The notes: generated from the sequence alone by a model not told the origin. Counted from the stretch's first letter, positions 26,773 through 58,184 are shown. The stretch is 64,000 nt of DNA from Parcubacteria group bacterium (GCA_041661275.1 JBAZUU010000001.1:101057-165056), one strand, 5' to 3'. A program made the numbers and translations.

Positions 26773-26900
26773 CGTCATCTCGAGCGAGTTCGACCAAAGG
26801 AAGAACGAGTCGAGAGATCTACTCAATAATAACGCTTGCGAACCTATTCGGTAGATTCCTCGACTCACACTCATTCCATTCGTGTTCGCTCGGAATGACG
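26773..26900. repeat. MITE-like nested-palindrome element, diverged copy (CGTCATCTCGAGCGA ... GTCGAGAGATCTAC ... GTAGATTCCTCGAC ... TCGCTCGGAATGACG)
   Basis: Same architecture as the copies at 40100, 52046 and 58023: terminal IR plus internal IR GTCGAxxGATCTAC / (GT)AGATxCxTCGAC. Lies between the pyk stop and tRNA-Ser. Confidence 0.75.
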
Positions 26901-26902
26901 AA

Positions 26903-28390
26903 TCATTCCACTTCATTCACCTCCACTGACCTAACTTTGTGGCCTTTTTTGTCAATGCCTAAAACTATGACTATTTTATCTTCCTTTTTTATCCTCCTTT
27001 CTTTTTTCGCTTTTTGGATGATTGCGTCGATAAAACTGTGATTATTTTCTTTCAAATTCAAAAGATACGGCTCGACGCCCCAAACTATTGAGAGCTGGTT
27101 GTAAACTTTCGGATTTTCAGTGGCAACAAATATGTGCCGTTCGGGACGGTAGTTAGAAATGGCACGGGCGGTGAAACCGGAAAAGGAAACAGCCAAAATT
27201 GCCTTGGCATCTTCTTTCTTGGCCATCTTCCAGGCTCCGGCAATAAAGTTAGCATATTCTTTTTTTATATGATCTTCGATTTCGATATGCTTGGGAACAT
27301 AATCATCAAACCGCGATTCTTCCGTGTCGCAGATTATCTGGCTCATTATCCGCACCGAATCAATCGGAAACTTTCCATTGGCCGATTCTCCGGAAAGCAT
27401 GGTGGCGTCAGCGTGATCAATGACGGCGTTCGAAACATCGGAAACTTCAGCGCGCGTAGGCAGTGGATTTTCAATCATCGAGTTGAGCATTTGCGTGGCT
27501 ACTATCACGGGTTTTGCCGCTTTCAAACATTTGGCGATAATTTCTTTTTGGTAGAGAACCACTTTTGTTTCCGGAAGCTCTATCCCCAGATCGCCTCTGG
27601 CTACCATAATGACATCAGACACTTCAATGAGTTCATCGATATTGATAATCGCTTCCTTTCTCTCAATTTTCGACACAATTTGTGGCAAATGTTCTTTGTC
27701 TTTGGCTAATTTTCTAATTTTTTCCCTAGTTTCTTTGATATCTTTGGCATAACTAACAAAAGAAAGAGCGACAAAATCAACATCTTTTTCAGCTACTGCA
27801 TAAACCATATCCTTTTCATCTTTTTCCGTCACTGGAGGAATATTTAGTTTGGCATCCGGAATGTTCACTCCCTTGTGATTTCTGACCACCCCGCCAGCGA
27901 CCACTTCTCCGATCAAAATATCATCTTTCTTTTCAACTACTTTTATTTTCATCAATCCATCTTCAATCAGAATTTCATTCCCAATTTCTATATCTTTAAT
28001 TATCCCCGGCCAATCCAATCCTATGCTTTTAATTTTATTTTTGGATTTTGGATTTTGGATTTTATTTGGAATTTGTAATTTATCATTTGAAATTTGGGAG
28101 CTAACCGATGCATCAGTGACGTTAATTTTTTCACCTACTTTTATTTCTACATCCTCACTGACTATTGTTCTTATGCGCGGTCCTTGCAGATCAGCCATAA
28201 TTCCCACTGGAATATTCAGTTTTCGGCTGATGTTTCTGATGTTATCAATCAATTCCCCATTAGATTCATGTGTTCCATGGGAAAAATTTATTCGCGCCAC
28301 ATTCATTCCGGCCATAATCATTTGCTCCAAAATTTTCGGTTCGGATGATGCCGGTCCGATTGTTGCTACAATTTTTGTTTTCTTTTGCAT
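26903..28390 (-). CDS. pyk: Pyruvate kinase carrying a low-complexity insertion (SQISNDKLQIPNKIQNPKSKNKIKSIG) in the B domain
   Basis: MQKKTKIVATIGPAS, NVARINFSHG, ADLQGPRIR, MVARGDLG motifs. Start moved to ATG 28390. Insertion is encoded by the GGATTTTGGATTTTGG/GGAATTTGTAATTT repeat at 28024-28090. Confidence 0.9.
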   Translation of the reverse strand: MQKKTKIVATIGPASSEPKILEQMIMAGMNVARINFSHGTHESNGELIDNIRNISRKLNIPVGIMADLQGPRIRTIVSEDVEIKVGEKINVTDASVSSQISNDKLQIPNKIQNPKSKNKIKSIGLDWPGIIKDIEIGNEILIEDGLMKIKVVEKKDDILIGEVVAGGVVRNHKGVNIPDAKLNIPPVTEKDEKDMVYAVAEKDVDFVALSFVSYAKDIKETREKIRKLAKDKEHLPQIVSKIERKEAIINIDELIEVSDVIMVARGDLGIELPETKVVLYQKEIIAKCLKAAKPVIVATQMLNSMIENPLPTRAEVSDVSNAVIDHADATMLSGESANGKFPIDSVRIMSQIICDTEESRFDDYVPKHIEIEDHIKKEYANFIAGAWKMAKKEDAKAILAVSFSGFTARAISNYRPERHIFVATENPKVYNQLSIVWGVEPYLLNLKENNHSFIDAIIQKAKKERRIKKEDKIVIVLGIDKKGHKVRSVEVNEVE

Positions 28391-28497
28391 ACATATATTA
28401 TATTCGTAATTCGTACATTCGTAAACATTCGTAATTCGTAGAGACAAACAAAAACAGACAATCCAAAAAGAATTGCCTGTTCTATATAAATTCAAGT

Positions 28498-28881
28498 TTA
28501 TTTGATAAGTTGAAATCCTCCGATAACTGGAAGCTTTTTCATCTCACCCTTTGAAGCATTGATGATTCCCAGAATCATAAATACGATGCTAGCGATCATG
28601 ACGATGAACCATAGCAGGATTCCGATGAATATAAAGGTTAGGATAGTTGAAGCTATATATCCAACGACCGTGAAAAGCAGAAAGTTCAACTGTTGATTGG
28701 CATGAAATTTGGCAAACGGACTGTTTTTGGCATCAGACACTAACGGAACGAAAAACAGAATTGGAAAAATATATCCGATAATCGCAAACAGTTTATTTTT
28801 TTCCGCATCACTGCCACCACCTTGGGGAGCCTGCGGAGCAGGAGCTACTGGCGGAGTTTGTTGTGCATTTTGTTCTTCCAT
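28498..28881 (-). CDS. DUF4870 (Tic20-like) small membrane protein with Pro/Ala/Gln-rich N-terminus
   Basis: Architecture FAIIGYIFPILFFVPLV...NSPFAKFHANQQLNFLL typical of DUF4870. 127 aa. Confidence 0.6.
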   Translation of the reverse strand: MEEQNAQQTPPVAPAPQAPQGGGSDAEKNKLFAIIGYIFPILFFVPLVSDAKNSPFAKFHANQQLNFLLFTVVGYIASTILTFIFIGILLWFIVMIASIVFMILGIINASKGEMKKLPVIGGFQLIK

Positions 28882-28955
28882 AAGTCACCCACCTTTCTAT
28901 TTTTATCTTTGTTTACTGTTTCTATAATATCACACTACCAGCAATATTCCAAATC

Positions 28956-29318
28956 CTACATTATCCCCGCAATTTCACTCAAAATATCCTCCGGAATCGG
29001 ATTTCTCTTGGGACTCACGCCAGGATATCTCCAAGCGCTGATAATTTTTATCGCTTTCTTCTTACTTCTTTCTTCTTTCTTCTTATCCTGGTACATAGCC
29101 CAAACTTCTGACTTCCACACTGTTTTATTATTAATAGTCTTCGGACTTACTGGTTGCATAACCGCCACGGTCTTTTCCGCAATCCCTTCTTCCTTTCTGG
29201 CTGGACGACTAATAACGCCCAGAATTTTCTGGGCGGAAAGACCGTAATATTGCATCTTAAATTTCACATGATTAGTCCAGTGGTATTGAGAAGTATTTTT
29301 TGGGCTTTTGGAAAACAT
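28956..29318 (-). CDS. Hypothetical basic protein, translationally coupled to htpX (TAATG overlap)
   Basis: ATG overlaps the htpX TAA stop by 1 nt. No motif. 120 aa. Confidence 0.45.
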   Translation of the reverse strand: MFSKSPKNTSQYHWTNHVKFKMQYYGLSAQKILGVISRPARKEEGIAEKTVAVMQPVSPKTINNKTVWKSEVWAMYQDKKKEERSKKKAIKIISAWRYPGVSPKRNPIPEDILSEIAGIM

Positions 29319-30211
29319 TATTTTACATCCATTCCCCGGAGCGCCCTCACTCTATCTTCAATCGGTGGATGAGTTAAAAACATTTTGGAAATTTTTTTTC
29401 CTTTGAAAGGATTGGTGATATAGAGATGAGCAGTGGCACGATTAGCAGCTTCCAATTTTTCCGGATCAGCTGAAATTTTTTCAAGCGCTCGCGCCAGTCC
29501 ATCAGGATAACGGGTGAGAAGCGCGCCATCGGCATCAGCTAAAAATTCCCGCTTTCGGGAAATAGCTAACTGCATGAGAACCGCGGCAATTGGCGCGAGA
29601 ATTGATAAGACTATAGCCAAAATTATCATAATTAGTCTCATTTGCCCCCCGCCCTCATTGTCGCTTCCCCGCCTTCCCCAAAAAGCCCAGTGGCGGAACC
29701 AATCGGCCATCAAGGCCACAAACCCAACCAGAACTACCACTACTGTGGAAAGCAAGATGTCGCGGTTGCCAATATGGGAAAGTTCGTGAGCAATGACACC
29801 CTGGAGTTCAGATTTCTCGAGCTTGTTTATTATTCCGGTGGTGAGACAAATAACTCCATGCTCCGGATCGCGACCAGTAGCAAAGGCATTGGGAGCGCTA
29901 TCTTGAATGATATATATTTTCGGCACCGGTAGCCCGGCAGTAATGCAAAGATTTTCCACTAGGTGATAAATTTCCGGATTACTATTGTGATCCAAGGGTT
30001 TAGCGCTCGACATGGCGAGAACAATTTTATCGCTCCACCAATAGGAGCCAAAACTCATAATAATAGAAAAAATTATCGCACCAAAAAGAATGGCGCTATT
30101 ATTCATCGCTCCGGCAAAAACATAACCAACCATGATGACAAAAATCAGGAAAAAGGTGATATAAAGATAGGTCAGCCGCGTATTTCTATCGGCTTGAGTA
30201 TATAGTGTCAT
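29318..30211 (-). CDS. htpX: Zinc metalloprotease HtpX (M48 family)
   Basis: HELSHIGNRD (HExxH), downstream Glu, four TM segments. 297 aa. Confidence 0.9.
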   Translation of the reverse strand: MTLYTQADRNTRLTYLYITFFLIFVIMVGYVFAGAMNNSAILFGAIIFSIIMSFGSYWWSDKIVLAMSSAKPLDHNSNPEIYHLVENLCITAGLPVPKIYIIQDSAPNAFATGRDPEHGVICLTTGIINKLEKSELQGVIAHELSHIGNRDILLSTVVVVLVGFVALMADWFRHWAFWGRRGSDNEGGGQMRLIMIILAIVLSILAPIAAVLMQLAISRKREFLADADGALLTRYPDGLARALEKISADPEKLEAANRATAHLYITNPFKGKKISKMFLTHPPIEDRVRALRGMDVK

Positions 30212-30343
30212 AAATTACAAATTCAAATATCTAAATCCTAAATAAATTCAAAATTATAATTTTCAAAATACAAAACGTTTTAAATTTTGGATTTTGATAT
30301 TGTAATTTATTTGGAATTTGAGATTTTGAATTTTGGATTTTTG

Positions 30344-30889
30344 CTAGAACTGAACATTAACCACTTCCTTCTCCGAAGCTTCCGCCTGGAAGAAATCACG
30401 TTTGGTAAAATTCAGCATCCCGGCAAAGATATTGGTTGGAAAGACTTGAATTTTAGTATTGAAGTCGCGCACATTGCCATTGTAAAAGCGTCTGGCCGCC
30501 ATAATTTTGTCTTCCGTGTCAGTCAGTTCTCTTTGCAATTCCAAAAAGTTTTGATTGGCTTTCAGATCTGGATAAGCTTCCGCGATAGCAAACAAACTTT
30601 TCAAAGCGCCTGAAAGCATATTTTCCGCCTGCCCTTTAGCTTCGGCCGTTCCTGCTCCCATAGCGGCAGCTCTGGCTTGCGTTACTTTTTCAAACACATC
30701 TTTCTCGTGCGCTGCATACCCCTTTACTGTGTTTACAAGATTTGGAATCAAATCGTGTCGGCGTTTCAGTTGCACGTCAATGTCACTCCAGGCTTCGTCA
30801 ACCCGATTTTTGAGTCTGACAAGCCCGTTATACATGAAGATAATGCCGATGACGAGCACAATTACGATAATGAGCAATATTATTGCCAT
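30344..30889 (-). CDS. lemA: LemA family membrane protein
   Basis: N-terminal TM, then YNGLVRLKNRVDEAWSDIDVQLKRRHDLIPNLV ... RRFYNGNVRDFNTKIQVFPTNIFA, characteristic of LemA. Upstream of htpX. Confidence 0.9.
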   Translation of the reverse strand: MAIILLIIVIVLVIGIIFMYNGLVRLKNRVDEAWSDIDVQLKRRHDLIPNLVNTVKGYAAHEKDVFEKVTQARAAAMGAGTAEAKGQAENMLSGALKSLFAIAEAYPDLKANQNFLELQRELTDTEDKIMAARRFYNGNVRDFNTKIQVFPTNIFAGMLNFTKRDFFQAEASEKEVVNVQF

Positions 30890-30897
30890 ATTCTTTT

Positions 30898-30966
30898 ATC
30901 CCCCACCACTTTTTCACTTTTTTTCTTCCGCGCCAAGGGCGCGAGTGAAAAAGTGGTGGGGGATGA
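30898..30966. repeat. Perfect 20-bp inverted repeat ATCCCCCACCACTTTTTCAC ... GTGAAAAAGTGGTGGGGGAT with inner GC hairpin CGCGCC aag GGCGCG
   Basis: Shares the GGTGGGGGATGAA arm with 20175-20300. Lies in the divergent spacer between lemA and the PAP2-like gene. Confidence 0.75.
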
Positions 30967-31076
30967 ATTATTTAATTACACTTAAATTGTACCAAAATGA
31001 CGATATATAGCAAACGCCTGCCCGATGTACCCAGGGTATGATATAATAATTATAGTTTTATAAATAATACAATTAT

Positions 31077-31556
31077 ATGATAGATATTTCTCAATACTAC
31101 GTATTTCTCATTCCTATCGCCATAGGAACTTTGATCCATGCCATCAAATTCATCCTTTATCTCCTGCGCCATGATTATAACTGGAAGCTGGCTATTGAAC
31201 ATGGCCTGACCTATGGCCATATGCCATCATCGCACACCGGTTTTGCCATCTCCCTCATAACTTCTGTCGGACACTACGAGGGAATCAGCACGGGAGCCTT
31301 TGCTGTCGCCGTAGCTTTGGCTATTTTTATTATTGACGACGCTATCCGGTTACGCATCCAGATGGGGCACCAGGCCAGATATATGAATATTATGACCCAA
31401 AAACTGGAGCTTGACCCGAAGGAATTCCCACGCCTGAAAGAACGAGTGGGACATAAAAAAATAGAAGTGCTGGTGGGTGGAATATTAGGACTTTTGTTTA
31501 CTCTCGCATTGATACGACTTTTAGAAATTTACCCTTTGCCTATTATAACTTTTTAA
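31077..31556 (+). CDS. Divergent PAP2 (DUF212) family membrane protein
   Basis: YGHMPSSHTGF plus DDAIRLRIQMGHQARY motif arrangement typical of the divergent PAP2 family. 159 aa. Confidence 0.65.
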   Translation: MIDISQYYVFLIPIAIGTLIHAIKFILYLLRHDYNWKLAIEHGLTYGHMPSSHTGFAISLITSVGHYEGISTGAFAVAVALAIFIIDDAIRLRIQMGHQARYMNIMTQKLELDPKEFPRLKERVGHKKIEVLVGGILGLLFTLALIRLLEIYPLPIITF

Positions 31557-32847: not shown

Positions 32848-32970
32848 AATTTTAAATTTTTAATCTGAAATTTGAAATGAATTTTAAATGATTTAATTTA
32901 AAATTAAAACATTTTAATAATTTAAAATTGATTAAAAATTAAAAATTCTAAATTAAAAATTGAACGAGGC

Positions 32971-34047: not shown

Positions 34048-34055
34048 TAATTTAT

Positions 34056-34697: not shown

Positions 34698-34716
34698 AAA
34701 AATATATATTAAAATG

Positions 34717-34788
34717 AGCGGGTAGCGGGAGTCGAACCCGCATCTTAACCTTGGGAAGGTCACATAATAGCCGCTATACGATACCCGC
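34717..34788 (-). tRNA. tRNA-Gly (anticodon CCC)
   Basis: Acceptor GCGGGTA/TACCCGC, anticodon arm TGACC-TTCCCAA-GGTTA, T-arm GCGGG-TTCGACT-CCCGC, discriminator T. Confidence 0.75.
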
Positions 34789-34816
34789 AGGTCCGCCCAG
34801 GGGGACGGACTGTTTA

Positions 34817-40057: not shown

Positions 40058-40086
40058 CAAAAATCCCCTTACCGGGGATTTTTTAA
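40058..40086 (+). terminator. Rho-independent terminator (AAATCCCC ttacc GGGGATTT plus T-run)
   Basis: 8-bp stem and T-run after rpsT. Confidence 0.8.
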
Positions 40087-40099
40087 TTTTAAAAAAAGT

Positions 40100-40238
40100 C
40101 CGTCATCCTGAGCGAAGTTCCAAATATATTGGGACGTAGTCGAAGGATCTACTACAAATTGTCACTAGTGCTAATATTTGGCAGATTCTTCGACTGCATT
40201 CCCCCGCTAAGGCGGGGTCATTCCGCTCAGAATGACGG
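40100..40238. repeat. MITE-like nested-palindrome element copy (CCGTCATCCTGAGCG ... GTCGAAGGATCTAC ... CAGATTCTTCGAC ... CGCTCAGAATGACGG)
   Basis: Terminal 15-bp inverted repeats and an internal inverted repeat. Ends exactly at the holA stop codon (40239-40241). Confidence 0.85.
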
Positions 40239-41210
40239 TCAAAGCTCCGCCACGAACTTATCTAAAGCCATTCTCATATCAACCTTGCCAGTCTTCACCG
40301 CATGGTCAAACCGCGCCAACTTGTTGTATATTTTTTTTAACCGCTCGAAAGTAAAAACTCTTGTTTGCGCCAGTGTTTTTCTGATAACAAACGGATGCAT
40401 TTTGGTGACTCGAGATATCTCATATTCACTGCTCATTCCTCTTTCCACGAGATCAGCGATCCTTATCATATTTCTAAATTGATAGACAATCATAGAAAAA
40501 ATATAGAACGGATCGTCGCCTTTTTCCATATTGTCATGAAGAAGTTTCATAGCTGACTTTTTATCATTGGCTCCAAGAGCGTCAATAGCTGAAAAAATAT
40601 TACCATCAATTTTCGCTTTGACCAGAAGCTCCACATCTTTGTCAGTTATCATGACTCCGTCCGAGTAACTTATCAGTTTTTGAATTTCTGAATCTAAAAT
40701 ATTAGTATCTGAACCAACAAAAGCGATTAGTTTTTCAAGAGCCGTTTTGGAAATAGAAGCTTTTTCGTCCAATTCTTTCATCCTTTTTAAAATCCATCCC
40801 GCCAATTTTGCGCCTTCCAATTTTGCGAACTCTTGTTTTTTAATTTCACTCTTTGACAATAGCAATTTAAATAAACTGTTATTTTTCTTCGGATTTTCCA
40901 CTTCCCAAAAAATAACCACGAGATCCAAGTCAGCCAGAATATTTTTATTTTCTTTTACATATTCTGCTATTTTTTTCTGATCATCCAACGCGCCACTGGA
41001 AATAATGTTTTTGACAATCACCAATCTTTTAGGCGCCAAAAGATTAGCCATGCCGAAAACACTCAAAACATCGTTCAGTTTAGCTTTTTCATTCATGTCA
41101 AACAAAGACAAGCCCGATCCGGACTTGTCGCTTTGAAGATATTTATTTTTGATTTCTTTTAGTTTGTGGAGAGATCTGAATGAATCTTCTCCATACAGAA
41201 ATATAATCAT
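40239..41210 (-). CDS. holA: DNA polymerase III delta subunit
   Basis: N-terminal IIFLYGEDSF, AAA-lid and C-terminal helical domain layout of HolA. 323 aa. Confidence 0.7.
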   Translation of the reverse strand: MIIFLYGEDSFRSLHKLKEIKNKYLQSDKSGSGLSLFDMNEKAKLNDVLSVFGMANLLAPKRLVIVKNIISSGALDDQKKIAEYVKENKNILADLDLVVIFWEVENPKKNNSLFKLLLSKSEIKKQEFAKLEGAKLAGWILKRMKELDEKASISKTALEKLIAFVGSDTNILDSEIQKLISYSDGVMITDKDVELLVKAKIDGNIFSAIDALGANDKKSAMKLLHDNMEKGDDPFYIFSMIVYQFRNMIRIADLVERGMSSEYEISRVTKMHPFVIRKTLAQTRVFTFERLKKIYNKLARFDHAVKTGKVDMRMALDKFVAEL

Positions 41211-41338
41211 TTTTTAAGCACCAAATCGCAAGCACCAAATTCCAAATAAATTACAATAACCAAAATCCCAATATTCAAAACGGTTTGGAATTTTGAATTT
41301 ATTTGATATTTGTTATTTGAAATTTGTAATTTCCAACG

Positions 41339-42445
41339 CTAGTTGGTTGGAGTCCAACGCAATGTCTGACCTGGTTCCAGAATTTCCAGCCAGATTTGTC
41401 CCGGCACGAATTTCACTTCCTGACCATTAGAGTCAAGAAACATCATCTTGGAAGTTGCCGCAGATTTATCTTTTTTCCAGGTACCCTTTATTTCCTGTCC
41501 ATTCATATAGAAGAAAGCATCGCCACTATCAACAGAGTCAAACCAGGGGTCTCCTAATTGAACATTGTTATATTGCTCTCCTTCAACTAACTGATCTGAT
41601 TGAGCCATTGCTACGACAACGTTTTTTGGCGCCAGTCTTTGCCCATTATTTCTGTCTGTGTCAGCCACATTGCCCCAAATTCTTTTATATGAATTTGTTT
41701 CTTTGTCATAATCATATTCAGCAGCAAATGGTCCGGCAAAAGCCACGCGCAAATGTCCGCCATTTGGTCTTTGGTCAACCGGCGCTTCGTCCTGGTGAGG
41801 ATATCCGGCAAACTTGTTTTCCATCCTAAACCCAAAAGCTTTAGCGCCTTCAATGATTTTAGCAAATTTAGCATATCCGGTATCCACCCCTCTCATTGTT
41901 CCGCTGGCTTCTTTTCGGTAGCAATATTGGCTGGCGCTGCGTCCGGCATCGTCATTACAATTCATATCGTCAAATTGCTTGCTGTCAAGAACGTCTTTAA
42001 ACTTTTGAATATTAGACCTGCCCCAGTGGACAAAGATCGCGTCGAGTCCTTCGGCCATTGACAGAAAGTCATGGCGCGCGCTTCTCATCGAACCAACATC
42101 ATCCGGATTGCCACAGACATAAACTCCCATAAGTCGAGTGATAGACGCGGTAATGACCGGCATTTCCACTACCATGTCCGCGTCAGAAAATCCGGCAGCT
42201 GGACGAGCCGCCACATCAGCTGGCTGCATAACCGCTACCGGCCTTCGATTCCAATCGGCACAAGCCAAGCCTGAAATTGGACTGACATTTCCGGAATTGG
42301 CCGGTCCAGTTTGAGTGGTTTTATTTCCATTTAGATCTATCTTTTTGTCTGTAGCAGTCTTTGGTCTGGAGAGAAAATAATATCCTCCCCCTGCTACCAG
42401 GATTACCACCAGAACGGCGATAATGATTTTTTGCGCTTTGTTCAT
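41339..42445 (-). CDS. DUF3048 (YerB-like) secreted/lipoprotein-type protein
   Basis: N-terminal TM anchor, then a domain resembling DUF3048 (GLACADWNRRPVAVMQ ... ) and a C-terminal beta domain. 368 aa. Confidence 0.5.
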   Translation of the reverse strand: MNKAQKIIIAVLVVILVAGGGYYFLSRPKTATDKKIDLNGNKTTQTGPANSGNVSPISGLACADWNRRPVAVMQPADVAARPAAGFSDADMVVEMPVITASITRLMGVYVCGNPDDVGSMRSARHDFLSMAEGLDAIFVHWGRSNIQKFKDVLDSKQFDDMNCNDDAGRSASQYCYRKEASGTMRGVDTGYAKFAKIIEGAKAFGFRMENKFAGYPHQDEAPVDQRPNGGHLRVAFAGPFAAEYDYDKETNSYKRIWGNVADTDRNNGQRLAPKNVVVAMAQSDQLVEGEQYNNVQLGDPWFDSVDSGDAFFYMNGQEIKGTWKKDKSAATSKMMFLDSNGQEVKFVPGQIWLEILEPGQTLRWTPTN

Positions 42446-50823: not shown

Positions 50824-50910
50824 AATTTATTATATCACAAAGTCGCCCTAATAATACAAAAAACTTAGACATCAAATGTCTAAGCCTTTTTGTAGTACAG
50901 TTTTTTAAAA

Positions 50911-51252: not shown

Positions 51253-51265
51253 CTATATTATACTA

Positions 51266-52030: not shown

Positions 52031-52045
52031 ATATTTTATAAAGCG

Positions 52046-52184
52046 CCGTCATCCTGAGCGAAGCGATCCCGCTTTAGCGGGAGAGCGCAGTCGAAGGATC
52101 TACTATAAGTTATTACTAGTTATATCACGTGGCAGATCCCTCGACTTCATTCGACTAAAAGTCTCATTCCGCTCGGGATGACGG
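52046..52184. repeat. MITE-like nested-palindrome element copy (CCGTCATCCTGAGCG ... GTCGAAGGATCTAC ... CAGATCCCTCGAC ... CGCTCGGGATGACGG)
   Basis: Same family. Lies between the PPIase start and the tsaE 3' end. The tsaE ORF in the track reads into it. Confidence 0.85.
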
Positions 52185-52588: not shown

Positions 52589-52666
52589 GTTTTATATACT
52601 ATCAGTAAATATAAAAAAACAAAACGGCAAATCGATTTCCGACTTGCCGCAGATTGCTCAAGTTCT

Positions 52667-53014
52667 CTAACTATGAGATCTTCGATGCCAGCGTTTAAAG
52701 GCTTCCTCTTTGCTCATTGCGCCAAATCTCTCATGACATTTTTCACAGCCGAATCCACCTGTCCCACCAATAATACCCTCGAAATTATGTGCCCCACCCT
52801 TTGGGCAGCGATCAAAAACGTAAGCGCCAAGCAAAGCCCAGACTACTATTGCAATGATCGCCACAAAGATAATAATAATGAACCATCCGATGTAAAAAGC
52901 TAATGCGCTCAAATTATCGGCAAACACATAAAGCGCATAAGTCACCGCAGCTGCTAGAATCAGAAAAACTAAAATGCTTTTTGTCGCCACAAACCAATTC
53001 CGGAATAAAATCAT
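52667..53014 (-). CDS. Membrane protein with C-terminal zinc-ribbon (CPKGG...CEKCHERF), hypothetical
   Basis: Two TM helices plus Cys4-like ribbon. 115 aa. Confidence 0.45.
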   Translation of the reverse strand: MILFRNWFVATKSILVFLILAAAVTYALYVFADNLSALAFYIGWFIIIIFVAIIAIVVWALLGAYVFDRCPKGGAHNFEGIIGGTGGFGCEKCHERFGAMSKEEAFKRWHRRSHS

Positions 53015-53211
53015 CTTTTTCCTCCTCGTTTATTTTTCAAGACTTATTTTAATCGCTTATTTAAGAGATTATGAACTGGCTTGATTATAATGATCAATTT
53101 TTATTTGTCAATAACCTTTAATTTGACATGAAAAAATATTCCTGCTATTTTGATTAACTAACTTGATTAGTACGGACGTGCCGGTGGCGCGTCTCCACAT
53201 TTTTCTAAATT

Positions 53212-54336
53212 ATGACTCTTGCTCCCCAGGAACAATTCAAAAACTTTCTAGATAAATCACAGGATGTTTTGATCCTTATCCCGGAAAATCCCAGCGCTGA
53301 CGCAGTCGGTTCTTCCTGGGCGCTCTATTATTTTCTGGAAAAAAGGGGCAAAAACCCGACCATCGCTTTTTCCAATCATTTGAGTGACAAATTCGGCTTT
53401 TTGACCAAGCCTTCGCGAATCCTCAATGAGATTTCCGGCGCCCGGGATTTCGTCCTTTCTTTTGATGTTTCTCGCAATAAGATCGGAAATGTTCGTCACG
53501 AAGAAAAGGACGGAAAATTTAATATCTATCTTACTCCGGAACATGGTACTATCAATCCTCGTGATTTCTCTTTCATTTTAGCCAAATTCAAATACGATCT
53601 TATCATCGTCATTGATTGCCCGGATCTGGAAAAATTGGGCAAGATTTATAATTCTAACACTGATTTGTTTTTTGAAGTGCCGGTCGTAAACATTGATTAT
53701 CGTTCTGGTAATGATAACTTTGGCCAGATCAATCTGGTTGATGTCACCTCTTCTTCATGCTCCGAAATTGTCGGTCGAGCCATCGAAGATATGGATATTT
53801 TAAGTATGGATAAGCAAATCGCTACCGCAATTCTCGCCGGTATCATCGGCGCCACTGACAGTTTTCAGAAAAAAAATACTACGCCTAAATCATTTCTTTT
53901 CGCGGCGCATCTCATGGACAAAGGGGCTGATCAGCAAGAAATTATCCGCTGGCTATACAAAACCCAACCTCTCCATGTTTTGAAACTTTGGGGTCGAACG
54001 ATGGCCAAATTGCAATGGGACGAAACTCTGAAAATCGTTTCCGCCACCATTTCCATTGATGATCTGGTGCAAAGTCGAGCCAACATCACTGATCTACCGC
54101 TCATTCTCGAAAAACTCCAAGAAAGCTACACCGACGGCTCTATTTTCCTCATCACTTTCAACGACACCCCCACAACTTCTGTTGCTCTTATGAAAACTGC
54201 CGACAATGAAATTTTCAAAAAACTTTATCTCAATTTCGGCGGGGAGCTGAAACGTGGCCTTCTGGAACTAAAAACCGAAAAGACTGATCTGGAAGAAGTG
54301 AGGAAAGGGATTGTGGAAAAGATAAAAATTTTATGA
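53212..54336 (+). CDS. DHH-family phosphoesterase (NrnA-like; DHH plus DHHA1 layout) with degenerate catalytic motifs
   Basis: Layout matches NrnA/bifunctional oligoribonuclease-pAp phosphatase. Motif I reads ENPSADAVGS and motif III reads IDYR instead of IDHH. 374 aa. Confidence 0.55.
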   Translation: MTLAPQEQFKNFLDKSQDVLILIPENPSADAVGSSWALYYFLEKRGKNPTIAFSNHLSDKFGFLTKPSRILNEISGARDFVLSFDVSRNKIGNVRHEEKDGKFNIYLTPEHGTINPRDFSFILAKFKYDLIIVIDCPDLEKLGKIYNSNTDLFFEVPVVNIDYRSGNDNFGQINLVDVTSSSCSEIVGRAIEDMDILSMDKQIATAILAGIIGATDSFQKKNTTPKSFLFAAHLMDKGADQQEIIRWLYKTQPLHVLKLWGRTMAKLQWDETLKIVSATISIDDLVQSRANITDLPLILEKLQESYTDGSIFLITFNDTPTTSVALMKTADNEIFKKLYLNFGGELKRGLLELKTEKTDLEEVRKGIVEKIKIL

Positions 54337-54465
54337 TTTAAAATTTAATACCCAAATTTTGAATTACGGACGTCAGTCTGTTTTTTTATTGTTCATCTTG
54401 TGATAAAATAATGATAACCAGATTAATAATTTCGTATTTTTGTATTAAATTCGTATTTCGTAACT

Positions 54466-57400
54466 ATGATAAAAATAATAAGAAAAAAAGATGCGCTGGA
54501 GGAATCAGAAAAAGCGGCTCTGACCAAAAAAATAATTTCCAAATTCCGCCGCAGGGAGGAAGAAGAAGAGACGTCCGCATATGCTGCGTCGATCAATTTC
54601 CCCTACCTCGACACCAATCTTGTTCCGATTTCCAATGACAATCTGAAACTTCTGACCGAGGTTGAGGCGAAAGAAAATGATCTGATCATCATCCAAAAAG
54701 TATCGCGCGTTGTCCATGCCATCACTACTGATCCGACTGAAGAAAAAACCAAAAACTTCATTGCGCAATTGCAGCAGGAGAAGGGCTGGCAAATGAAGAT
54801 TTTTGTCGTTTCCCGGTCAAATATGAATATCGTCCTGGAGCGATACAAAAAGATCATTTTTGTGGAAATTCTGGATCTTATGAGTCTACACTTAAGTCCG
54901 GAAGAACTGGCCAAGTTTGAGGAGGAAATGAAAGATCTCCTGACGCTGAAACTTCGGATTAATGAGATGCCGGTCACCCAGATCTTGAATATTATCATGG
55001 CCGGCGCGTATAAGCTCAAGGCCTCGGACGTGCATCTCGAACCCCAGGAAAAAGAATTTCGTCTGCGTTATCGAATTGACGGCGTACTGCAAGATGTAGC
55101 ATATCTGCCGCTCAATGTCTATAAGTCGATCATCACCCGCATAAAATATATGTGCCATATGAAGATCAACTTGCGCGATATCGCCCAGGACGGCACATTT
55201 GAATTCACGGTTCCCCTGGAAACAGGAGAGAAAAAAGCCGACACCCGTGTTTCCGTCATTCCGGGAAATTTTGGCGAATCGGCCGTGATAAGAATCCTCG
55301 ATCCAGAATCGATCAGAGTGACTGTTGATAAACTGGGTCTCACTGGACTGGCCAGTGAGATAATGCAAAAGGAAATTTTGTCGCCAAATGGAATGATTTT
55401 GAATACCGGGCCGACTGGATCAGGAAAAACAACGACGCTCTATGCCATCATTAACACGCTCAATCAACCGGACAAGAAAATAATCACCATTGAAGACCCG
55501 ATCGAATATGAACTGGCCGGTATTTCCCAAACGCAGATAGAAAAATCGCGTGGCTATACTTTTGCAACAGGTCTTCGAGCCATTGTCCGTCAAGACCCGG
55601 ATATTATTCTTGTTGGTGAAATTCGTGATGATGAAACAGCGGACATTGCTGTCAATTCATCGCTTACCGGGCACTTGGTACTCTCGTCGCTTCACACCAA
55701 CAATGCTATCGGCGCTATTCCCCGACTCATCGAATTGGGCGTGAAACCTTCTCTCATGTCTCCGGCTATAAATGCCGTCATCGGACAGCGTTTGGTGCGA
55801 AAACTTTGCGAATGCAAAGAAGCCTATGTTCCGGCGACTGAATCGATTGAATCAATAAAAAGAATTCTTTCTATCATTTCTCCTAAATCAAAAGTGGAAG
55901 TTCCGAAAAATATCCAAAATCTTTATCGCCCCAAAGGTTGTTCCAAATGCAATGGCATTGGATATAAAGGACGGATTGGAATATTTGAGATACTGACCAT
56001 AACCGAAGAAATTGAAAAATTAATTTTGGAGCTGGCTGGAGAAACAGAACTGACTATGACGGCACTTGAAGGCGGAATGATCACTATGCTTCAGGACGGA
56101 ATCATTAAGGCCGTAACTGGAATAACTTCCATTGATGAAGTAAAGCGCGTGACCGGTCAGGGAGAATTTTTGGAAATCATCTATGACAAATTGATGGCGG
56201 CGACGTTGGGTCGGTCAGTCTTGGTGAGTAAAAAGAATTTTGAACTGGCGGAAAAAACTATAAAAGATTTCAAAAAATTTCAGGAATTGATTTCTAAAGA
56301 AAAAAGCACCGACATCGCCAAAATTATTTTTGCCGCCGCTTCCATCCTTGGAGTAAACGATATTCACATTGAACCGCAGGCAGTGCTGGTCAAGATTCGT
56401 TTCCGCATCGATGGAATTTTGCAAGATGTCGCCACAATTCCACTAAATGAATACCCGGCCTTTTTAGGTGAGATAAAAATGCTTTCCGGCGTCAAAACTG
56501 AAGCGCGTCAGGGTGTGATTGACTCCCGATTTACCATTAAATTTGATGAAGAAATAAAAAACGCAAGAGAACCACAAACTGACGTGCGTGTTTCCATAAT
56601 TTTAGGCGGCTTTGGCGAAACGGTTGTGTTGCGTTTACTTTTCAAAACTACCTTGGAATATGATCTCAAAAAATTGGGAATACGCCAGCAAAATCTGGAT
56701 AAGATCATGCATGAAATCGAAAAGCCCAATGGCGTCATTTTGAACACCGGCCCGACTGGCAGCGGAAAAACAACGACCCTTTACTCGATCTTGCAGCATC
56801 TCAATAACCGGGAAGTGAAAATTATTACTGTAGAAGACCCGATTGAATATCAGATGGAAGGAATTTTGCAAACACCAGTCAATGACAAAGAGGGATATAC
56901 TTTCGTCAACGCCCTTCGACAGCTTTTGCGTCAAAATCCGGATATTATGATGATCGGTGAAATCCGCGACAATGAAACAGCAGTCGCCGCCGTGCAAGCC
57001 GCTCTCACTGGACACTTAGTACTCTCTACTATTCACACCAACAACGCCGCTGGAGCGGTGGCGCGAATGATCAATATGGGCGTCGCTCCTGCTGACATCG
57101 CCACTTCCGTCAACGCCTTTATCGCCCAGCGACTTGTACGAAGGCTGTGTGATTGCAAGAAAAAAATAGCGCCGACCGCGGAAGAAAAAGCAAAAATAGA
57201 AGCCACGCTAAAAAAGGTTTCGCCAAAAAGTGGCGTGGAAATTCCTAAAATCGGAGATATATACAAGCCAGGAGGATGCGTCAAATGTAATGGCATCGGA
57301 TACCACGGACGAATGACGGTTTCAGAAGTATTTCAGATCACCCGCGACATCCAGGAAATGATCACTCGCGGTGCCATGACGGTCGAACTCGAAGAAAAAG

Positions 57401-57501
57401 CTATTGAAAATGGCATGCTGACGATGGCGCAAGACGGCGTTATCCGCGTCCTTGAAGGCGAAACAACACTGTCAGAAGTGGAAAGAGTTACTGATTTGTA
57501 A
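54466..57501 (+). CDS. pilB: Type II/IV secretion-system ATPase (PilB/GspE family) with tandemly duplicated ATPase modules
   Basis: T2SSE N-domain, then two complete cores each with Walker A GPTGSGKTTTLY, Asp box, Walker B, His box and tetracysteine zinc motif (CECK...CSKCNG and CDCK...CVKCNG). 1011 aa. Confidence 0.85.
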   Translation: MIKIIRKKDALEESEKAALTKKIISKFRRREEEEETSAYAASINFPYLDTNLVPISNDNLKLLTEVEAKENDLIIIQKVSRVVHAITTDPTEEKTKNFIAQLQQEKGWQMKIFVVSRSNMNIVLERYKKIIFVEILDLMSLHLSPEELAKFEEEMKDLLTLKLRINEMPVTQILNIIMAGAYKLKASDVHLEPQEKEFRLRYRIDGVLQDVAYLPLNVYKSIITRIKYMCHMKINLRDIAQDGTFEFTVPLETGEKKADTRVSVIPGNFGESAVIRILDPESIRVTVDKLGLTGLASEIMQKEILSPNGMILNTGPTGSGKTTTLYAIINTLNQPDKKIITIEDPIEYELAGISQTQIEKSRGYTFATGLRAIVRQDPDIILVGEIRDDETADIAVNSSLTGHLVLSSLHTNNAIGAIPRLIELGVKPSLMSPAINAVIGQRLVRKLCECKEAYVPATESIESIKRILSIISPKSKVEVPKNIQNLYRPKGCSKCNGIGYKGRIGIFEILTITEEIEKLILELAGETELTMTALEGGMITMLQDGIIKAVTGITSIDEVKRVTGQGEFLEIIYDKLMAATLGRSVLVSKKNFELAEKTIKDFKKFQELISKEKSTDIAKIIFAAASILGVNDIHIEPQAVLVKIRFRIDGILQDVATIPLNEYPAFLGEIKMLSGVKTEARQGVIDSRFTIKFDEEIKNAREPQTDVRVSIILGGFGETVVLRLLFKTTLEYDLKKLGIRQQNLDKIMHEIEKPNGVILNTGPTGSGKTTTLYSILQHLNNREVKIITVEDPIEYQMEGILQTPVNDKEGYTFVNALRQLLRQNPDIMMIGEIRDNETAVAAVQAALTGHLVLSTIHTNNAAGAVARMINMGVAPADIATSVNAFIAQRLVRRLCDCKKKIAPTAEEKAKIEATLKKVSPKSGVEIPKIGDIYKPGGCVKCNGIGYHGRMTVSEVFQITRDIQEMITRGAMTVELEEKAIENGMLTMAQDGVIRVLEGETTLSEVERVTDL

Positions 57502-57505
57502 TTTT

Positions 57506-57988
57506 ATGGAAACGACTAACAAATATTTTATTCCCATAAAATTAAATAAGGACATTCTTGTCACTTATCACACCTCTCCCGCTCATATCGGCCGGCTTTA
57601 TCACTCCGTTGATTTTATCGCGCCTCTTGAAACACCGATCCTGGCCGCTCTTGATGGAAAGGTTACCGCTATAAAACTTGACTCAGATATCGGAGGATCA
57701 ACAGAAGATTTTGATCAGTATGGAAATTATATTGAGATAAAGCATGCCAACGGTGAATTTTCCATGTATGAACACATGCGAAAAAATGGCGGATTGGTAA
57801 AAATCGGCGATCACGTGAAGACTGGCCAAGCCATTGGATATGTTGGTGAAACCGGCTGGATGGCTGATCTTGGGCCACATCTGCATTTTAATGTCCATAA
57901 ATATACCCGCGGCAACGGCCCGACTGATTACGAAGCATTGAAAATTCACTGGGTCACGCCACCGCCGAATAAGGAAAATATCATATAA
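57506..57988 (+). CDS. M23-family (LytM-domain) metallopeptidase
   Basis: HxxxD (YHSVD) and HLHF motif with GYVGETG in the M23 layout. Start moved to METTNKYF (ATG 57506), just after the pilB stop. Confidence 0.75.
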   Translation: METTNKYFIPIKLNKDILVTYHTSPAHIGRLYHSVDFIAPLETPILAALDGKVTAIKLDSDIGGSTEDFDQYGNYIEIKHANGEFSMYEHMRKNGGLVKIGDHVKTGQAIGYVGETGWMADLGPHLHFNVHKYTRGNGPTDYEALKIHWVTPPPNKENII

Positions 57989-57993
57989 TTACA

Positions 57994-58020
57994 AAAACGC
58001 TCTTGCAAGGGCGTTTTTTT
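57994..58020 (+). terminator. Rho-independent terminator (AAACGCTCTTGCAAGGGCGTTT plus T-run)
   Basis: Hairpin plus 7 T after the M23 peptidase gene. Confidence 0.75.
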
Positions 58021-58022
58021 AT

Positions 58023-58184
58023 CCGTCATCCCGAGCGAGTTCGACCACAGGGAGAACGAGTCGAGGGATCTACCCCTGATTACCTAAAGTTTTATTAAAT
58101 AAATTTAGCCAGTGATAATATAAAGCAGATCCCTCGACTTCATTCCTCCGACATTCGTCGGAGTCATTCCGCTCGGGATGACGG
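58023..58184. repeat. MITE-like nested-palindrome element copy (CCGTCATCCCGAGCG ... GTCGAGGGATCTAC ... CAGATCCCTCGAC ... CGCTCGGGATGACGG), longest copy
   Basis: Perfect 15-bp terminal inverted repeats and internal inverted repeat. Sandwiched between two terminators. Confidence 0.9.

What the first reader, a model, noticed from the sequence alone, without database searches (positions are those of the whole stretch)
26773..58184. Four-copy MITE-like nested-palindrome element (CCGTCATCCCGAGCG ... GTCGAGGGATCTAC ... AGATCCCTCGAC ... CGCTCGGGATGACGG)
Copies lie at 26773-26900 (diverged), 40100-40238, 52046-52184 and 58023-58184. Each has 15-bp terminal inverted repeats and an internal inverted repeat (GTCGArGGATCTAC / AGATyCyTCGAC) around a variable 30-50 bp core. 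A copy is therefore predicted to fold into one long imperfect hairpin of about 130-160 nt.

All copies are intergenic at gene 3' ends:
- the 40100 copy ends exactly at the holA stop codon;
- the 52046 copy has been absorbed into the tsaE reading frame, supplying its last approximately 25 codons;
- the 58023 copy sits between two terminators;
- the 26773 copy sits between the pyk stop and tRNA-Ser.

The central core is partly conserved too (GTCGAAGGATCTACTAyAArTTrTyACTAGT). That suggests either a small structured RNA family or a non-autonomous mobile element that has recently spread.
Basis: seen in the sequence. Interest (0 to 1): 0.7.

Follow-up and report, generated by a model that had tools for sequence, protein, structure and literature searches.

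The report
Gene-less pairs of Ssn-nuclease hairpin repeats
The four repeats are real, but they are inverted pairs of a small DNA hairpin that in many other bacteria flanks the gene for a tiny single-strand-DNA-cutting nuclease (Ssn), so they are gene-less members of a recently described repeat/nuclease system in an unusual long-loop form, not a new kind of element.

Summary
All four copies exist at the stated coordinates, far beyond chance. Two more lie just past the window end on the same Parcubacteria contig.

Each copy is an inverted pair of a 50-60 nt half-unit: CGTC-AT-YYY-GAGCG-(variable sub-hairpin)-AGTCGA-RRR-AT-C. YYY and RRR are complementary within all 12 half-units. They match between partner halves in only 1 of 6 pairs. 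The conserved structure is therefore two separate hairpins, not one long hairpin.

The same unit occurs in at least 120 genome loci across many phyla. In several genomes it flanks, in inverted orientation, a 92-96 aa GIY-YIG gene that is 44-53% identical to the 94-aa Neisseria gonorrhoeae protein I take to be the SsnA orthologue. SsnA is a published hairpin-specific single-stranded-DNA endonuclease.

The units also fit the 'CGTC-tagged REP' superfamily, but none matches the published Ssn-motif search string.

No nuclease gene lies in the 84 kb examined, so the window copies are non-autonomous. Relatives show an empty tsaE site. At the holA site, one relative has an orthologous but diverged pair and another has none. 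Copies are 41-74% identical, so this is not a recent burst.

Verdict: a long-loop variant of a known kind. The MITE and RNA readings are not supported.

The parts
26772..26901 (.). Pair 1: inverted pair of hairpin units between the pyk stop (26903) and tRNA-Ser (26616-26703). Triplets are CTC/GAG (left) and TCC/GGA (right).
26773..26823 (+). Pair 1, left half-unit: CGTCAT-CTC-GAGCG-[GTTC..GAAC sub-hairpin]-AGTCGA-GAG-ATCTAC
   Evidence: E 1.3e-12
26850..26900 (-). Pair 1, right half-unit: CGTCAT-TCC-GAGCG-[ACAC..GTGT sub-hairpin]-AGTCGA-GGA-ATCTAC
   Evidence: E 3.2e-12
40100..40238 (.). Pair 2: begins 1 nt after the holA stop codon (40239-40241, minus strand). It lies between holA and the rpsT terminator (40059-40083).
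40100..40153 (+). Pair 2, left half-unit (CCT/AGG; sub-hairpin GTTCCAA..TTGGGAC)
   Evidence: E 2.9e-13
40180..40238 (-). Pair 2, right half-unit (TCT/AGA; sub-hairpin CCCCGC..GCGGGG). Its triplet differs from that of the left half.
   Evidence: E 1.1e-12
52046..52184 (.). Pair 3: between the tsaE core and the PPIase start codon (52030).
52046..52105 (+). Pair 3, left half-unit (CCT/AGG; sub-hairpin CCCGC..GCGGG)
   Evidence: E 1.3e-11
52131..52184 (-). Pair 3, right half-unit (CCC/GGG; sub-hairpin GACT..AGTC)
   Evidence: E 4.1e-14
52103..52184 (-). The last 27 codons plus the stop codon of the tsaE reading frame, supplied by pair 3. Homologues end here and are 133-139 aa long.
58023..58184 (.). 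Pair 4: after the M23-peptidase gene (57452-57988, +). It has the longest spacer (about 50 nt) and is the only pair with the same triplet (CCC/GGG) in both halves.
58023..58074 (+). Pair 4, left half-unit. The repeat finder copy 58024-58073 is 92% identical to the pair 1 left half (26773-22).
   Evidence: E 1.6e-14; D13
58124..58184 (-). Pair 4, right half-unit (sub-hairpin CTCCGAC..GTCGGAG)
   Evidence: E 5.4e-13

Best explanation
**What it is.** Each copy is a gene-less inverted pair of hairpin units, with the CGTC tags pointing outward. The unit is CGTC-AT-YYY-GAGCG-(variable sub-hairpin)-AGTCGA-RRR-AT-C.

**Family.** The unit belongs to the CGTC-tagged REP superfamily. More specifically, it is the type of hairpin that flanks genes of the Ssn family. 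Ssn proteins are about 94-aa single-domain GIY-YIG endonucleases. The Neisseria enzyme SsnA binds such a hairpin only in single-stranded DNA and cuts a few nucleotides 5' of the tag.

**What is shown here.**
- The unit architecture and its within-unit covariation.
- The spread of the unit across many phyla.
- Its position on both sides of Ssn-family genes in other genomes.
- The absence of such a gene between the arms here, or anywhere in the 84 kb examined.
- Presence/absence differences among relatives.

**What is inferred.**
- In this Parcubacteria genome the pairs act as binding and cleavage sites for an Ssn nuclease supplied in trans, whenever the DNA is single-stranded (replication, DNA uptake).
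- They were multiplied and are turned over by an Ssn-dependent process of unknown chemistry, much as REPINs depend on RAYT.
- Landing next to stop codons, they are tolerated, and one has become the tail of TsaE.
For: **Unit structure**
- Eight half-units in the window and four more on the same contig share the tag, both conserved blocks and the 3' C.
- YYY/RRR are complementary within 12 of 12 halves, while partner halves carry the same triplet in only 1 of 6 pairs.

**Distribution and covariation in other genomes**
- A genome-collection scan for the half-unit gave at least 120 loci in many phyla; my own estimate of the chance expectation is about 0.5.
- 112 of 119 distinct units have complementary triplets.
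- The three stem pairs switch between UA and CG with at most 2 of 44 unpaired, and an inner 2-bp mini-hairpin also covaries; 0 of 500 shuffles reach the observed score.

**Link to the nuclease gene**
- The unit flanks a GIY-YIG ORF on both sides in the loci from Bifidobacterium oedipodis (L086), an Oscillospiraceae MAG (L112) and a Patescibacteria MAG (L049). In the Gammaproteobacteria (L006) and Kiritimatiellae (L004) loci only a unit at or after the 3' end of the ORF was seen.
- In the reverse test on 80 metagenome loci carrying such genes, a forward unit lies upstream in 29 of 72, an inverted unit downstream in 25 of 73, and both in 23. I estimate about 0.001 expected per flank.
- The base after the palindrome is C in 71 of 71 flanking units. 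In the published Neisseria enzyme this position is the one most critical for binding (PMC11893778).
- These proteins are 44-53% identical, without gaps, to a 94-aa N. gonorrhoeae protein. I take that protein to be the SsnA orthologue because it has Y6, Y17 and E64 and sits among 7 canonical NTS repeats.

**Non-autonomy and site differences**
- No GIY-YIG gene was found in the window or its flanks.
- The tsaE|PPIase junction is empty in three relatives.
- The holA site is occupied at identical boundaries in a relative with 76% HolA identity but lacks the element in one with 82% identity.
Against: - No ssn gene was found in the 84 kb of the 299.6-kb contig that could be read, and none from that contig appeared among the top 120 homologues. 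A partner nuclease in this genome is therefore unproven.
- None of the units matches the published SRM search string, either in the window or among 119 units from other genomes.
- The loops are 21-30 nt, against 4-5 nt in described CGTC REPs.
- No Ssn enzyme has been tested on this variant.
- GIY-YIG nucleases are hydrolytic, and no mechanism by which one could copy DNA is known.
- There is no target-site duplication.
- Copies are old and diverged, so current activity is not shown.
- Sequence alone cannot exclude that the transcribed hairpins also act in RNA, for example as terminators.
Confidence: 0.78

Rival explanations
1. Fossil repeats. The pairs are relics of an Ssn-hairpin system whose nuclease has been lost from this reduced Parcubacteria genome. 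They persist because they are neutral, or because the hairpins have been co-opted as terminators or insulators at gene 3' ends.
For: - No GIY-YIG gene lies in the 84 kb examined.
- Copies are only 41-74% identical.
- The holA-site copy is old, being shared at 76% HolA identity.
- On the holA strand, pair 2 is followed by ACTTTTTTT, which resembles a terminator.
Against: - All 12 halves keep the tag, both conserved blocks, the 3' C and perfect triplet complementarity, although the loops have diverged completely. That pattern suggests continuing selection on the positions a protein would recognise.
- Compensatory changes are also seen in the sub-hairpins.
- Only about 28% of the contig could be examined.
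Confidence: 0.15
2. Classical MITE: a deletion derivative of a DDE-type insertion sequence, moved through its 15-bp terminal inverted repeats.
For: - The copies have 15-bp inverted ends, are 130-162 bp long and lie between genes.
- An IS30-like element occupies the same tsaE junction in one relative.
Against: - No target-site duplication is visible at any copy.
- The 'TIRs' are part of a self-pairing unit that also occurs singly, in tandem and tags-inward.
- The gene found between such ends is a GIY-YIG nuclease, never a transposase.
- The ends are conserved across phyla, which IS-specific TIRs are not.
Confidence: 0.02
3. Structured RNA family: a small RNA, or a cis-acting 3'-UTR element or terminator, selected at the RNA level.
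For: - Folding z-scores are strong, -5 to -10, on both strands.
- Stems and sub-hairpins covary.
- The copies sit at gene 3' ends, where they would be transcribed. Di Nocera et al. proposed an RNA role for REPs (PMC3733652).
Against: - No Rfam family matches.
- The pairs are symmetric and fold equally on both strands.
- The short-loop relatives carry RY-GNA-RY mini-hairpins. From my own knowledge, the d(GCGAAGC) type is exceptionally stable in DNA.
- The associated protein is a DNA endonuclease whose characterised member does not bind RNA (PMC11893778).
- The conserved blocks are sequence-invariant rather than covarying, as expected for protein contacts.
Confidence: 0.04
4. RAYT-type REPIN: the pairs are mobilised by a REP-associated tyrosine (Y1/HUH) transposase that recognises a GTAG tag.
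For: - 9 of 12 half-units end in ...ATCTAC, so the complementary strand begins with GTAG.
- The inverted-pair organisation resembles that of REPINs (PMC3116915).
Against: - The CTAC tail is not conserved in other genomes (alignment A4, columns 45-50), whereas CGTC/TGTC and the 3' C are.
- No Y1 transposase appears in the gene tables of the three loci (about 62 kb, some of it outside the window) for which Pfam-annotated gene tables were returned; window 11.5-30 kb and 51-54 kb had none.
- The flanked gene elsewhere is GIY-YIG.
Confidence: 0.01

Closest known systems
Ssn nuclease / NTS-SRM hairpin system (Chenal et al. 2025, Nat Commun 16:2388, PMC11893778)
   Same: - The hairpin has a 5' unpaired CGTC, a stem beginning AT-YYY and an essential C right after the palindrome.
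- In other genomes the units flank, in inverted orientation, a ~94-aa single-domain GIY-YIG gene. Those proteins are 44-53% identical to the gonococcal protein I take to be the SsnA orthologue.
- Many gene-less copies are scattered near genes.
   Different: - None of the units fits the published SRM search string.
- The inner stem is replaced by invariant GAGCG/GTCGA blocks.
- Loops are 10-40 nt (21-30 nt here) and contain their own hairpin.
- The host is a Parcubacteria (CPR) genome.
- No ssn gene was seen in the part of the genome examined, and there is no biochemical test of this variant.
CGTC-tagged REPs (Di Nocera et al. 2013, BMC Genomics 14:522, PMC3733652), including Neisseria dRS3 and Rickettsia RPE-4/RPE-6
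   Same: - CGTC (or TGTC) tag.
- The first two stem pairs are A-T and T-A.
- A short 3' tail.
- Mostly inverted pairs, often of unlike partners.
- Placement within about 20 nt of ORF 3' ends, with occasional incorporation into reading frames.
   Different: - Described families have 8-9 bp stems and 4-5 nt loops. Here there are 5 covarying pairs plus conserved blocks and long structured loops.
- That paper concluded CGTC REPs have no dedicated enzyme.
REPIN-RAYT systems (Bertels and Rainey 2011, PMC3116915)
   Same: - An inverted pair of hairpin repeats forms the dispersed unit.
- It is non-autonomous and associated with a small nuclease-type gene that is itself flanked by the repeats.
- It persists vertically over long periods with diverged copies.
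   Different: - The tag is CGTC, not GTAG.
- The partner is a hydrolytic GIY-YIG nuclease, not an HUH/Y1 transposase, so the peel-and-paste chemistry cannot be assumed.
Bacterial MITEs such as Correia/NEMIS or RU-1 (ERIC)
   Same: Size of 130-160 bp, inverted ends, intergenic copies, and occasional read-through into ORFs.
   Different: There is no target-site duplication and no transposase-bearing parent. The ends are self-folding units that are conserved across phyla.

Membership tests
CGTC-tagged REP superfamily (PMC3733652) | Unpaired CGTC (or TGTC/CCTC) tetranucleotide at the 5' end of the palindrome | tested here: met
   CGTC is present in 12 of 12 half-units of the contig and is invariant in 44 of 44 short-loop units, though the scan pattern forced this. 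Among units next to GIY-YIG genes the tag is TGTC in 54 and CGTC in 12.
CGTC-tagged REP superfamily (PMC3733652) | Stem whose first two pairs are A-T and T-A | tested here: met
   Pairs 11-42 (AU) and 12-41 (UA) hold in 44 of 44 units. All 12 halves of this contig read CAT...AT.
CGTC-tagged REP superfamily (PMC3733652) | Stem of 8-9 bp and loop of 4-5 nt | tested here: not met
   There are five covarying pairs, followed by the invariant GAGCG/GTCGA blocks. Loops are 10-40 nt and 21-30 nt with a nested hairpin in the window.
CGTC-tagged REP superfamily (PMC3733652) | Mainly inverted pairs, between genes, close to ORF 3' ends | tested here: met
   All 6 occurrences on the contig are inverted pairs. 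They lie 1-2 nt from the holA and pyk stops and 9 and 44 nt from two other stops. In other genomes there are 87 tags-outward, 43 tags-inward and 34 tandem neighbour pairs.
Ssn-related motif (SRM) / Ssn system (PMC11893778) | Match to the published degenerate search string HGTCWYN(0-2)YYVSBRHN(0-5)WNVSBRGN(0-2)RNCYNB | tested here: not met
   There are 0 matches in the window and 0 of 119 units from other genomes match. The same regex finds 7 NTS copies around gonococcal ssnA.
Ssn-related motif (SRM) / Ssn system (PMC11893778) | Units flank a single-domain ~94-aa GIY-YIG gene on both sides in inverted orientation | tested here: met
   This is met in other genomes: L049, L086 and L112 have units on both sides, and L004 and L006 have a unit at or after the 3' end only. 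In 80 metagenome loci, both sides are flanked in 23. It is not met in the window itself, where the pairs contain no gene.
Ssn-related motif (SRM) / Ssn system (PMC11893778) | The flanked protein is an SsnA homologue with the catalytic residues Y6, Y17 and E64 | tested here: met
   Pfam GIY-YIG scores E 1e-15 to 1e-18. The proteins are 44-53% identical, without gaps, to the 94-aa gonococcal protein that carries Y6/Y17/E64. Residue spacing is the same: Y5, Y16 and E63 in the L086 protein.
Ssn-related motif (SRM) / Ssn system (PMC11893778) | Conserved GTC 5' of the palindrome (needed for cleavage) and C immediately 3' of it (needed for binding) | tested here: met
   Both are present in 12 of 12 halves. 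The 3' C is present in 71 of 71 gene-flanking units.
Ssn-related motif (SRM) / Ssn system (PMC11893778) | An ssn gene in the same genome | tested here: inconclusive
   None was found in 84 kb of the 299.6-kb contig by phmmer or tblastn. None of the top 120 homologues of a CPR Ssn lies on that contig. The rest of the genome could not be read.
Ssn-related motif (SRM) / Ssn system (PMC11893778) | Bound and cut by the cognate Ssn as ssDNA only | not testable with these tools
   This needs biochemistry.
MITE | Target-site duplication flanking the element | tested here: not met
   The flanks of the four window copies and of the orthologous L231 copy share no direct repeat.
MITE | Autonomous parent IS with the same ends and a transposase gene | tested here: not met
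   The only gene found between such ends is a GIY-YIG nuclease.
REPIN/RAYT | GTAG tag and a flanked Y1 (RAYT) transposase gene | tested here: not met
   GTAG appears only on the complementary strand of 9 of 12 halves and is not conserved elsewhere. No Y1_Tnp family appears in the gene tables.
Any Rfam RNA family | Score at or above the gathering threshold | tested here: not met
   Only two tRNAs were found in the window. A permissive scan of pair 4 gave only sub-threshold chance hits.

The most novel reading that the evidence does not exclude
The GAGCG...GTCGA long-loop units are a separate specificity class of Ssn-hairpin pairs. This class spans many phyla, including CPR bacteria and Gram-positives, and the published SRM motif misses it.

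On this reading the gene-less inverted pairs behave as REPIN-like replicators. They insert or are replaced at fixed positions next to stop codons, and they sit in one orientation relative to replication.

If true, this would be a tractable system for testing whether a hydrolytic GIY-YIG ssDNA nuclease can drive the spread of DNA repeats.
Probability: 0.3. Interest if true: 0.6.

Novelty: new variant of a known kind. Interest (0 to 1): 0.35.

Why it matters
- **Unannotated repeats.** A repeat seen in many genome collections, which is often translated into spurious small ORFs or appended to real genes (here TsaE), can now be assigned to a defined nuclease-hairpin system.
- **Coverage of the published motif.** The published Ssn recognition motif matched none of the GAGCG/GTCGA units collected here. 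Counts of Ssn-associated repeats based on that motif may therefore be underestimates, and the hairpin loop can evidently carry long structured inserts.
- **CPR genomes.** In a CPR bacterium with a small genome, about one pair per 14 kb is a noticeable load. CPR bacteria are thought to depend on DNA uptake (my own background knowledge, not tested here). By analogy with Neisseria, the pairs could influence how incoming single-stranded DNA is used.
- **Annotation.** The 27-residue tail of TsaE and similar extensions in homologues are repeat-derived, not part of the protein family.

Tried and rejected
- **Rfam.** The gathering-threshold scan of the window and a permissive scan of pair 4 found nothing relevant.
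- **Literature.** Searching for the exact repeat strings returned only an unrelated cell-biology paper. A generic 'GIY-YIG + inverted repeats' search returned mostly mitochondrial papers. A search for follow-ups on Ssn found only the original paper, and its supplements are not held.
- **Partner gene.** phmmer and tblastn found no GIY-YIG in the window plus 10 kb on each side. I then tried to spot the partner on the same 299.6-kb contig through the 'longest contig' column of a homologue search. None appeared among the top 120. Walking further along the contig is not possible with the look-up rules.
- **Solved structures.** The PDB holds only UPF0213 proteins (1zg2, 1ywl) as distant relatives and no Ssn structure.
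- **Phages as carriers.** Only 10 viral contig stretches carry the unit and 6 carry an Ssn relative, so phages do not look like the main vehicle.
- **Terminators.** The scan did not call the terminator-like hairpins beside pair 4.
- **Extra motif hits.** Two further strict-motif hits in the window (620-677, 60816-60891) lack the tag and the conserved blocks and lie in coding sequence. I treat them as chance.
- **A proposed extra base pair.** Columns 21-31 in the short-loop units are unpaired in 24 of 44 sequences, so that pair is not supported.
- **One look-up failed.** The closest HolA relative on a short contig had no DNA available.

Full report
**1. Checking the observation**

- The terminal motif CGTCATYCYGAGCG, allowing 2 mismatches, occurs 8 times in 64 kb. 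These are exactly the two ends of each copy. Shuffles gave 0.69 on average, and none of 100 reached 8.
- A profile built from the half-units recovers these 8 halves (E 1e-11 to 1e-14) and nothing else in the window up to E = 10.

The gene context is as described.
- pyk lies at 26903-28495 (-), with its stop 2 nt from copy 1. tRNA-Ser lies at 26616-26703.
- The holA stop is 1 nt from copy 2, and rpsT with its terminator lies on the other side.
- The TsaE Pfam domain ends at residue 131 of 161, and the last 27 codons are read from copy 3.
- Copy 4 follows an M23 peptidase gene. The terminator-like hairpins beside it are visible by eye, but the scan did not call them.

**2. Anatomy: two hairpin units, not one long hairpin**

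As a single strand, each copy folds into a four-way junction of outer stem, left sub-hairpin, central stem and right sub-hairpin.
- With RNA parameters the z-scores are -5 to -10 on either strand.
- With DNA parameters the energies are -29 to -42 kcal/mol, against -13 to -20 for the two halves folded separately.

Each copy is an inverted pair of one unit: (C)CGTC-AT-YYY-GAGCG-[variable hairpin]-(R)AGTCGA-RRR-AT-CT(A/G)C.
- YYY and RRR are complementary within all 12 half-units known from this contig. The triplets are CTC, TCC, CCT, TCT and CCC.
- The two halves of a pair carry the same triplet in only 1 of 6 pairs.
- Pairing is therefore conserved inside each half, and the cross-half 'long hairpin' tolerates mismatches.
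- The loops hold sub-hairpins of at least five unrelated sequences. Related copies show compensatory changes, such as GTTC/GAAC versus ATTC/GAAT, ACAC/GTGT versus GCAC/GTGC, and CCCCGC/GCGGGG versus CCCCGT/ACGGGG.

**3. The same genome outside the window**

NCBI names the source a 'Parcubacteria group bacterium' MAG. The window maps to a 299.6-kb contig.
- Ten kb past the window end there are two more pairs, after the genes for a penicillin-binding protein (Transgly + Transpeptidase) and YebC. None lies in the 10 kb before the window start.
- That makes 6 pairs in 84 kb.
- All six have the same orientation on the window + strand, in a stretch where GC skew is uniformly negative. With six copies this is only suggestive (two-sided p about 0.03).
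- Pairs are 41-74% identical to one another, so they are not products of a recent burst.

**4. Related sequences elsewhere**

My own estimate of the chance expectation is about 0.5.
- The loci come from Bacteroidota (many Pedobacter), Clostridia, Coriobacteriia, Bifidobacterium, Acidobacteriota, Gemmatimonadota, Planctomycetota, Verrucomicrobiota, Chloroflexota, Gammaproteobacteria MAGs, Myxococcales and several CPR groups.
- Of 119 distinct units, 112 have RRR exactly complementary to YYY, across 8 triplet types.
- On 44 short-loop units, the three variable stem pairs switch between UA and CG with at most 2 unpaired. An inner 2-bp mini-hairpin (RY-GNA-RY) also covaries (GC 33/AU 10; CG 29/UA 7/UG 5). 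No shuffle of 500 reached the observed score, and slid controls fell from 93% paired to at most 53%.
- One caveat applies: the scan pattern forced Y and R at these positions. The shuffle control allows for that.
- Neighbouring units in other genomes are tags-outward in 87 cases, tags-inward in 43 and tandem in 34. Tags-outward pairs more often carry different triplets (51) than the same one (36).

**5. The associated gene**

In five genome loci a 82-96 aa ORF (measured from its ATG) lies beside the units.
- In L049, L086 and L112 a forward unit ends roughly 10-60 nt before the start codon and an inverted unit begins 0-11 nt after the stop.
- In L004 and L006 only a unit at or after the 3' end of the ORF was seen.
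- The three ORFs scanned (L086, L112, L049) are GIY-YIG domains (Pfam E 1e-15 to 1e-18).

For the reverse test I fetched 80 metagenome loci encoding relatives of these proteins. I searched them with a strict motif, CAT-XXX-GA-N5-70-GA-rc(XXX)-AT, which I estimate to occur by chance about once per 3e5 nt per strand.
- A forward unit lies within 200 nt upstream in 29 of 72 loci. An inverted unit lies downstream in 25 of 73. Both are present in 23.
- The flanks hold 98 further units in 127 kb.
- In all 71 flanking units the base after the palindrome is C. The tag is TGTC in 54 and CGTC in 12.

**6. What is already known**

Di Nocera et al. 2013 (PMC3733652) defined 'CGTC-tagged REPs'.
- Their features are an unpaired CGTC/TGTC tag, a stem whose first pairs are A-T and T-A, a short tail, mostly inverted dimers (often of unlike partners), placement within 20 nt of ORF 3' ends and occasional intragenic copies.
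- They found no dedicated enzyme.

Chenal et al. 2025 (PMC11893778) described the Ssn system.
- Such hairpins (NTS in Neisseria, SRM in general) flank ssnA, a 94-aa single-domain GIY-YIG gene.
- SsnA binds the hairpin only as ssDNA, not as dsDNA, RNA or the reverse strand. It cuts a few nucleotides 5' of the tag.
- The C after the palindrome is critical for binding, and the three bases before it are critical for cleavage.
- The loop can be replaced or extended.
- The authors noted that the NTS-ssnA-NTS layout resembles an insertion sequence.

**7. Bridging to that system**

- A tblastn search of one of my flanked proteins against the plasmid collection hit two N. gonorrhoeae chromosomes that are filed there.
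- The ORF at that site is 94 aa with Y6, Y17 and E64, the residues mutated in the paper. It sits among 7 NTS repeats that match the published SRM string. I take it to be the gonococcal SsnA orthologue.
- It is 44% identical to the Patescibacteria protein and 53% identical to the Bifidobacterium protein, in both cases without gaps.
- The proteins flanked by the window-type hairpin are therefore Ssn-family members.
- The hairpin variant, however, does not fit the published search string: 0 hits in the window and 0 of 119 units.

**8. Mobility evidence**

*tsaE site.*
- More than 100 TsaE homologues are 133-139 aa long and align to only 81-84% of the window protein.
- In three relatives (79-81% identity, same gene order) the tsaE stop lies 0-7 nt from, or overlaps, the PPIase start codon, with no element between them.
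- This site is therefore empty in relatives. The element displaced the stop codon and added 27 codons.
- No target-site duplication is visible.

*holA site.*
- A relative with 76% identical HolA carries a pair at exactly the same boundaries (TGAC|CGTCAT ... ATGACG|GACTTTTT). Its inner blocks (GAGGA/GACGA) and loops are different.
- The flanking terminator and coding sequence are nearly unchanged there.
- A relative with 82% identical HolA has an unrelated sequence of about 120 nt at this site.
- The pair is therefore either old and fast-evolving inside, or it has been replaced in place.

**9. How it most likely works**

Shown:
- the unit architecture;
- its conservation and covariation;
- its partnership with Ssn genes in other genomes;
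- the lack of a gene inside the window pairs.

Inferred:
- an Ssn nuclease supplied in trans recognises each half as an ssDNA hairpin;
- because the tags point outward, the predicted cuts fall just outside the pair, one on each strand;
- Ssn activity is involved in the spread or turnover of the pairs, by chemistry that is unknown;
- by analogy with Neisseria, the sites may limit the use of incoming ssDNA.

No ssn gene was found in the 84 kb that could be read. A fossil state cannot be excluded, and I give it about 0.15.

**10. Verdict**

- The MITE and small-RNA interpretations are only partly right.
- The element is a long-loop variant of a known repeat-nuclease system in a CPR genome.
- It is of moderate interest, mainly because it shows that the published motif misses a widespread class.

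Noticed in passing
window 20173-20302 and 30895-30967: A second, unrelated palindromic repeat. Its arms are TTCATCCCCCACC(A/C)CTTTT and AAAAAGTGGTGGGGGATGAA, around a small GC hairpin (CGCGCCAAGGGCGCG in the second copy). There are two copies, with 82 and 25 nt between the arms.
   Followed up: partly
window 21072-21140 and 62236-62304: A 69-nt direct repeat, 86% identical, containing the hairpin CTCTCCCTTCGGGAGAG. The copies are 41 kb apart (D5).
   Followed up: no
window 5339-5412 and 7281-7354; window 20434-20541: A 74-nt repeat (85% identical) with copies 1.9 kb apart, and a tandem duplication of a 54-nt unit (D4 and D12).
   Followed up: no
window 28019-28095, 30203-30373, 32854-32961, 41236-41341, 58969-59077: AT-rich tracts built from GGATTTT / AATTTGAAATTT-like words recur in intergenic regions on both strands (D1, I1-I7).
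   Followed up: no
L212:1993-3052 (relative; tsaE|PPIase junction): In another relative the same junction that holds pair 3 in the window carries an IS30-like gene (HTH_38 + rve). TsaE there also has a foreign C-terminal tail. This junction seems to be a repeated landing place.
   Followed up: partly
L230:2112-2275 (relative; holA|rpsT spacer): The relative with 82% identical HolA has, in place of the pair, an unrelated sequence of about 120 nt. That sequence begins GTCGAAGGGAAC and has its own partial inverted repeats. It could be a different repeat family or a decayed unit.
   Followed up: no
window 26772-58184 plus L206:961-1092 and L206:7406-7551: All six pairs on the contig have the same orientation (the 'L-type' half, then the 'R-type' half with GGAATGA...GAATGA, on the window + strand). 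GC skew is negative throughout this region.
   Followed up: partly
window half-unit 3' ends (e.g. 26819-26822, 40149-40152, 52100-52103, 58070-58073): 9 of 12 half-units of this genome end in ...ATCTAC, so the complementary strand starts with GTAG, the tag of RAYT-type REPs. The tail is not conserved in other genomes.
   Followed up: partly
L129:720-2551; also L132, L141, L151: Some metagenome contigs with an Ssn gene carry dense arrays of units. In L129, 13 units fall into repeating blocks of roughly 240 nt, each with a CCC(-) unit followed by one or two TTC(+) units.
   Followed up: no
window 62645-63659; L204:4491-5800 and 16053-17084 (window start and 10 kb before it): Toxin-antitoxin or defence-type genes cluster at both window ends: a HEPN + nucleotidyltransferase pair, AbiEii, two Fic proteins and MazE. 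A BRO-N domain gene (25231-26064) sits beside tRNA-Ser.
   Followed up: no
L002:1479-1547 and L003:1165-1233: Two short-read assemblies of the same organism both break 69 nt after the holA stop, that is, in the middle of pair 2. These palindromic repeats fragment assemblies. Many Ssn homologues in the database sit on contigs under 2 kb, which I suspect has the same cause.
   Followed up: partly
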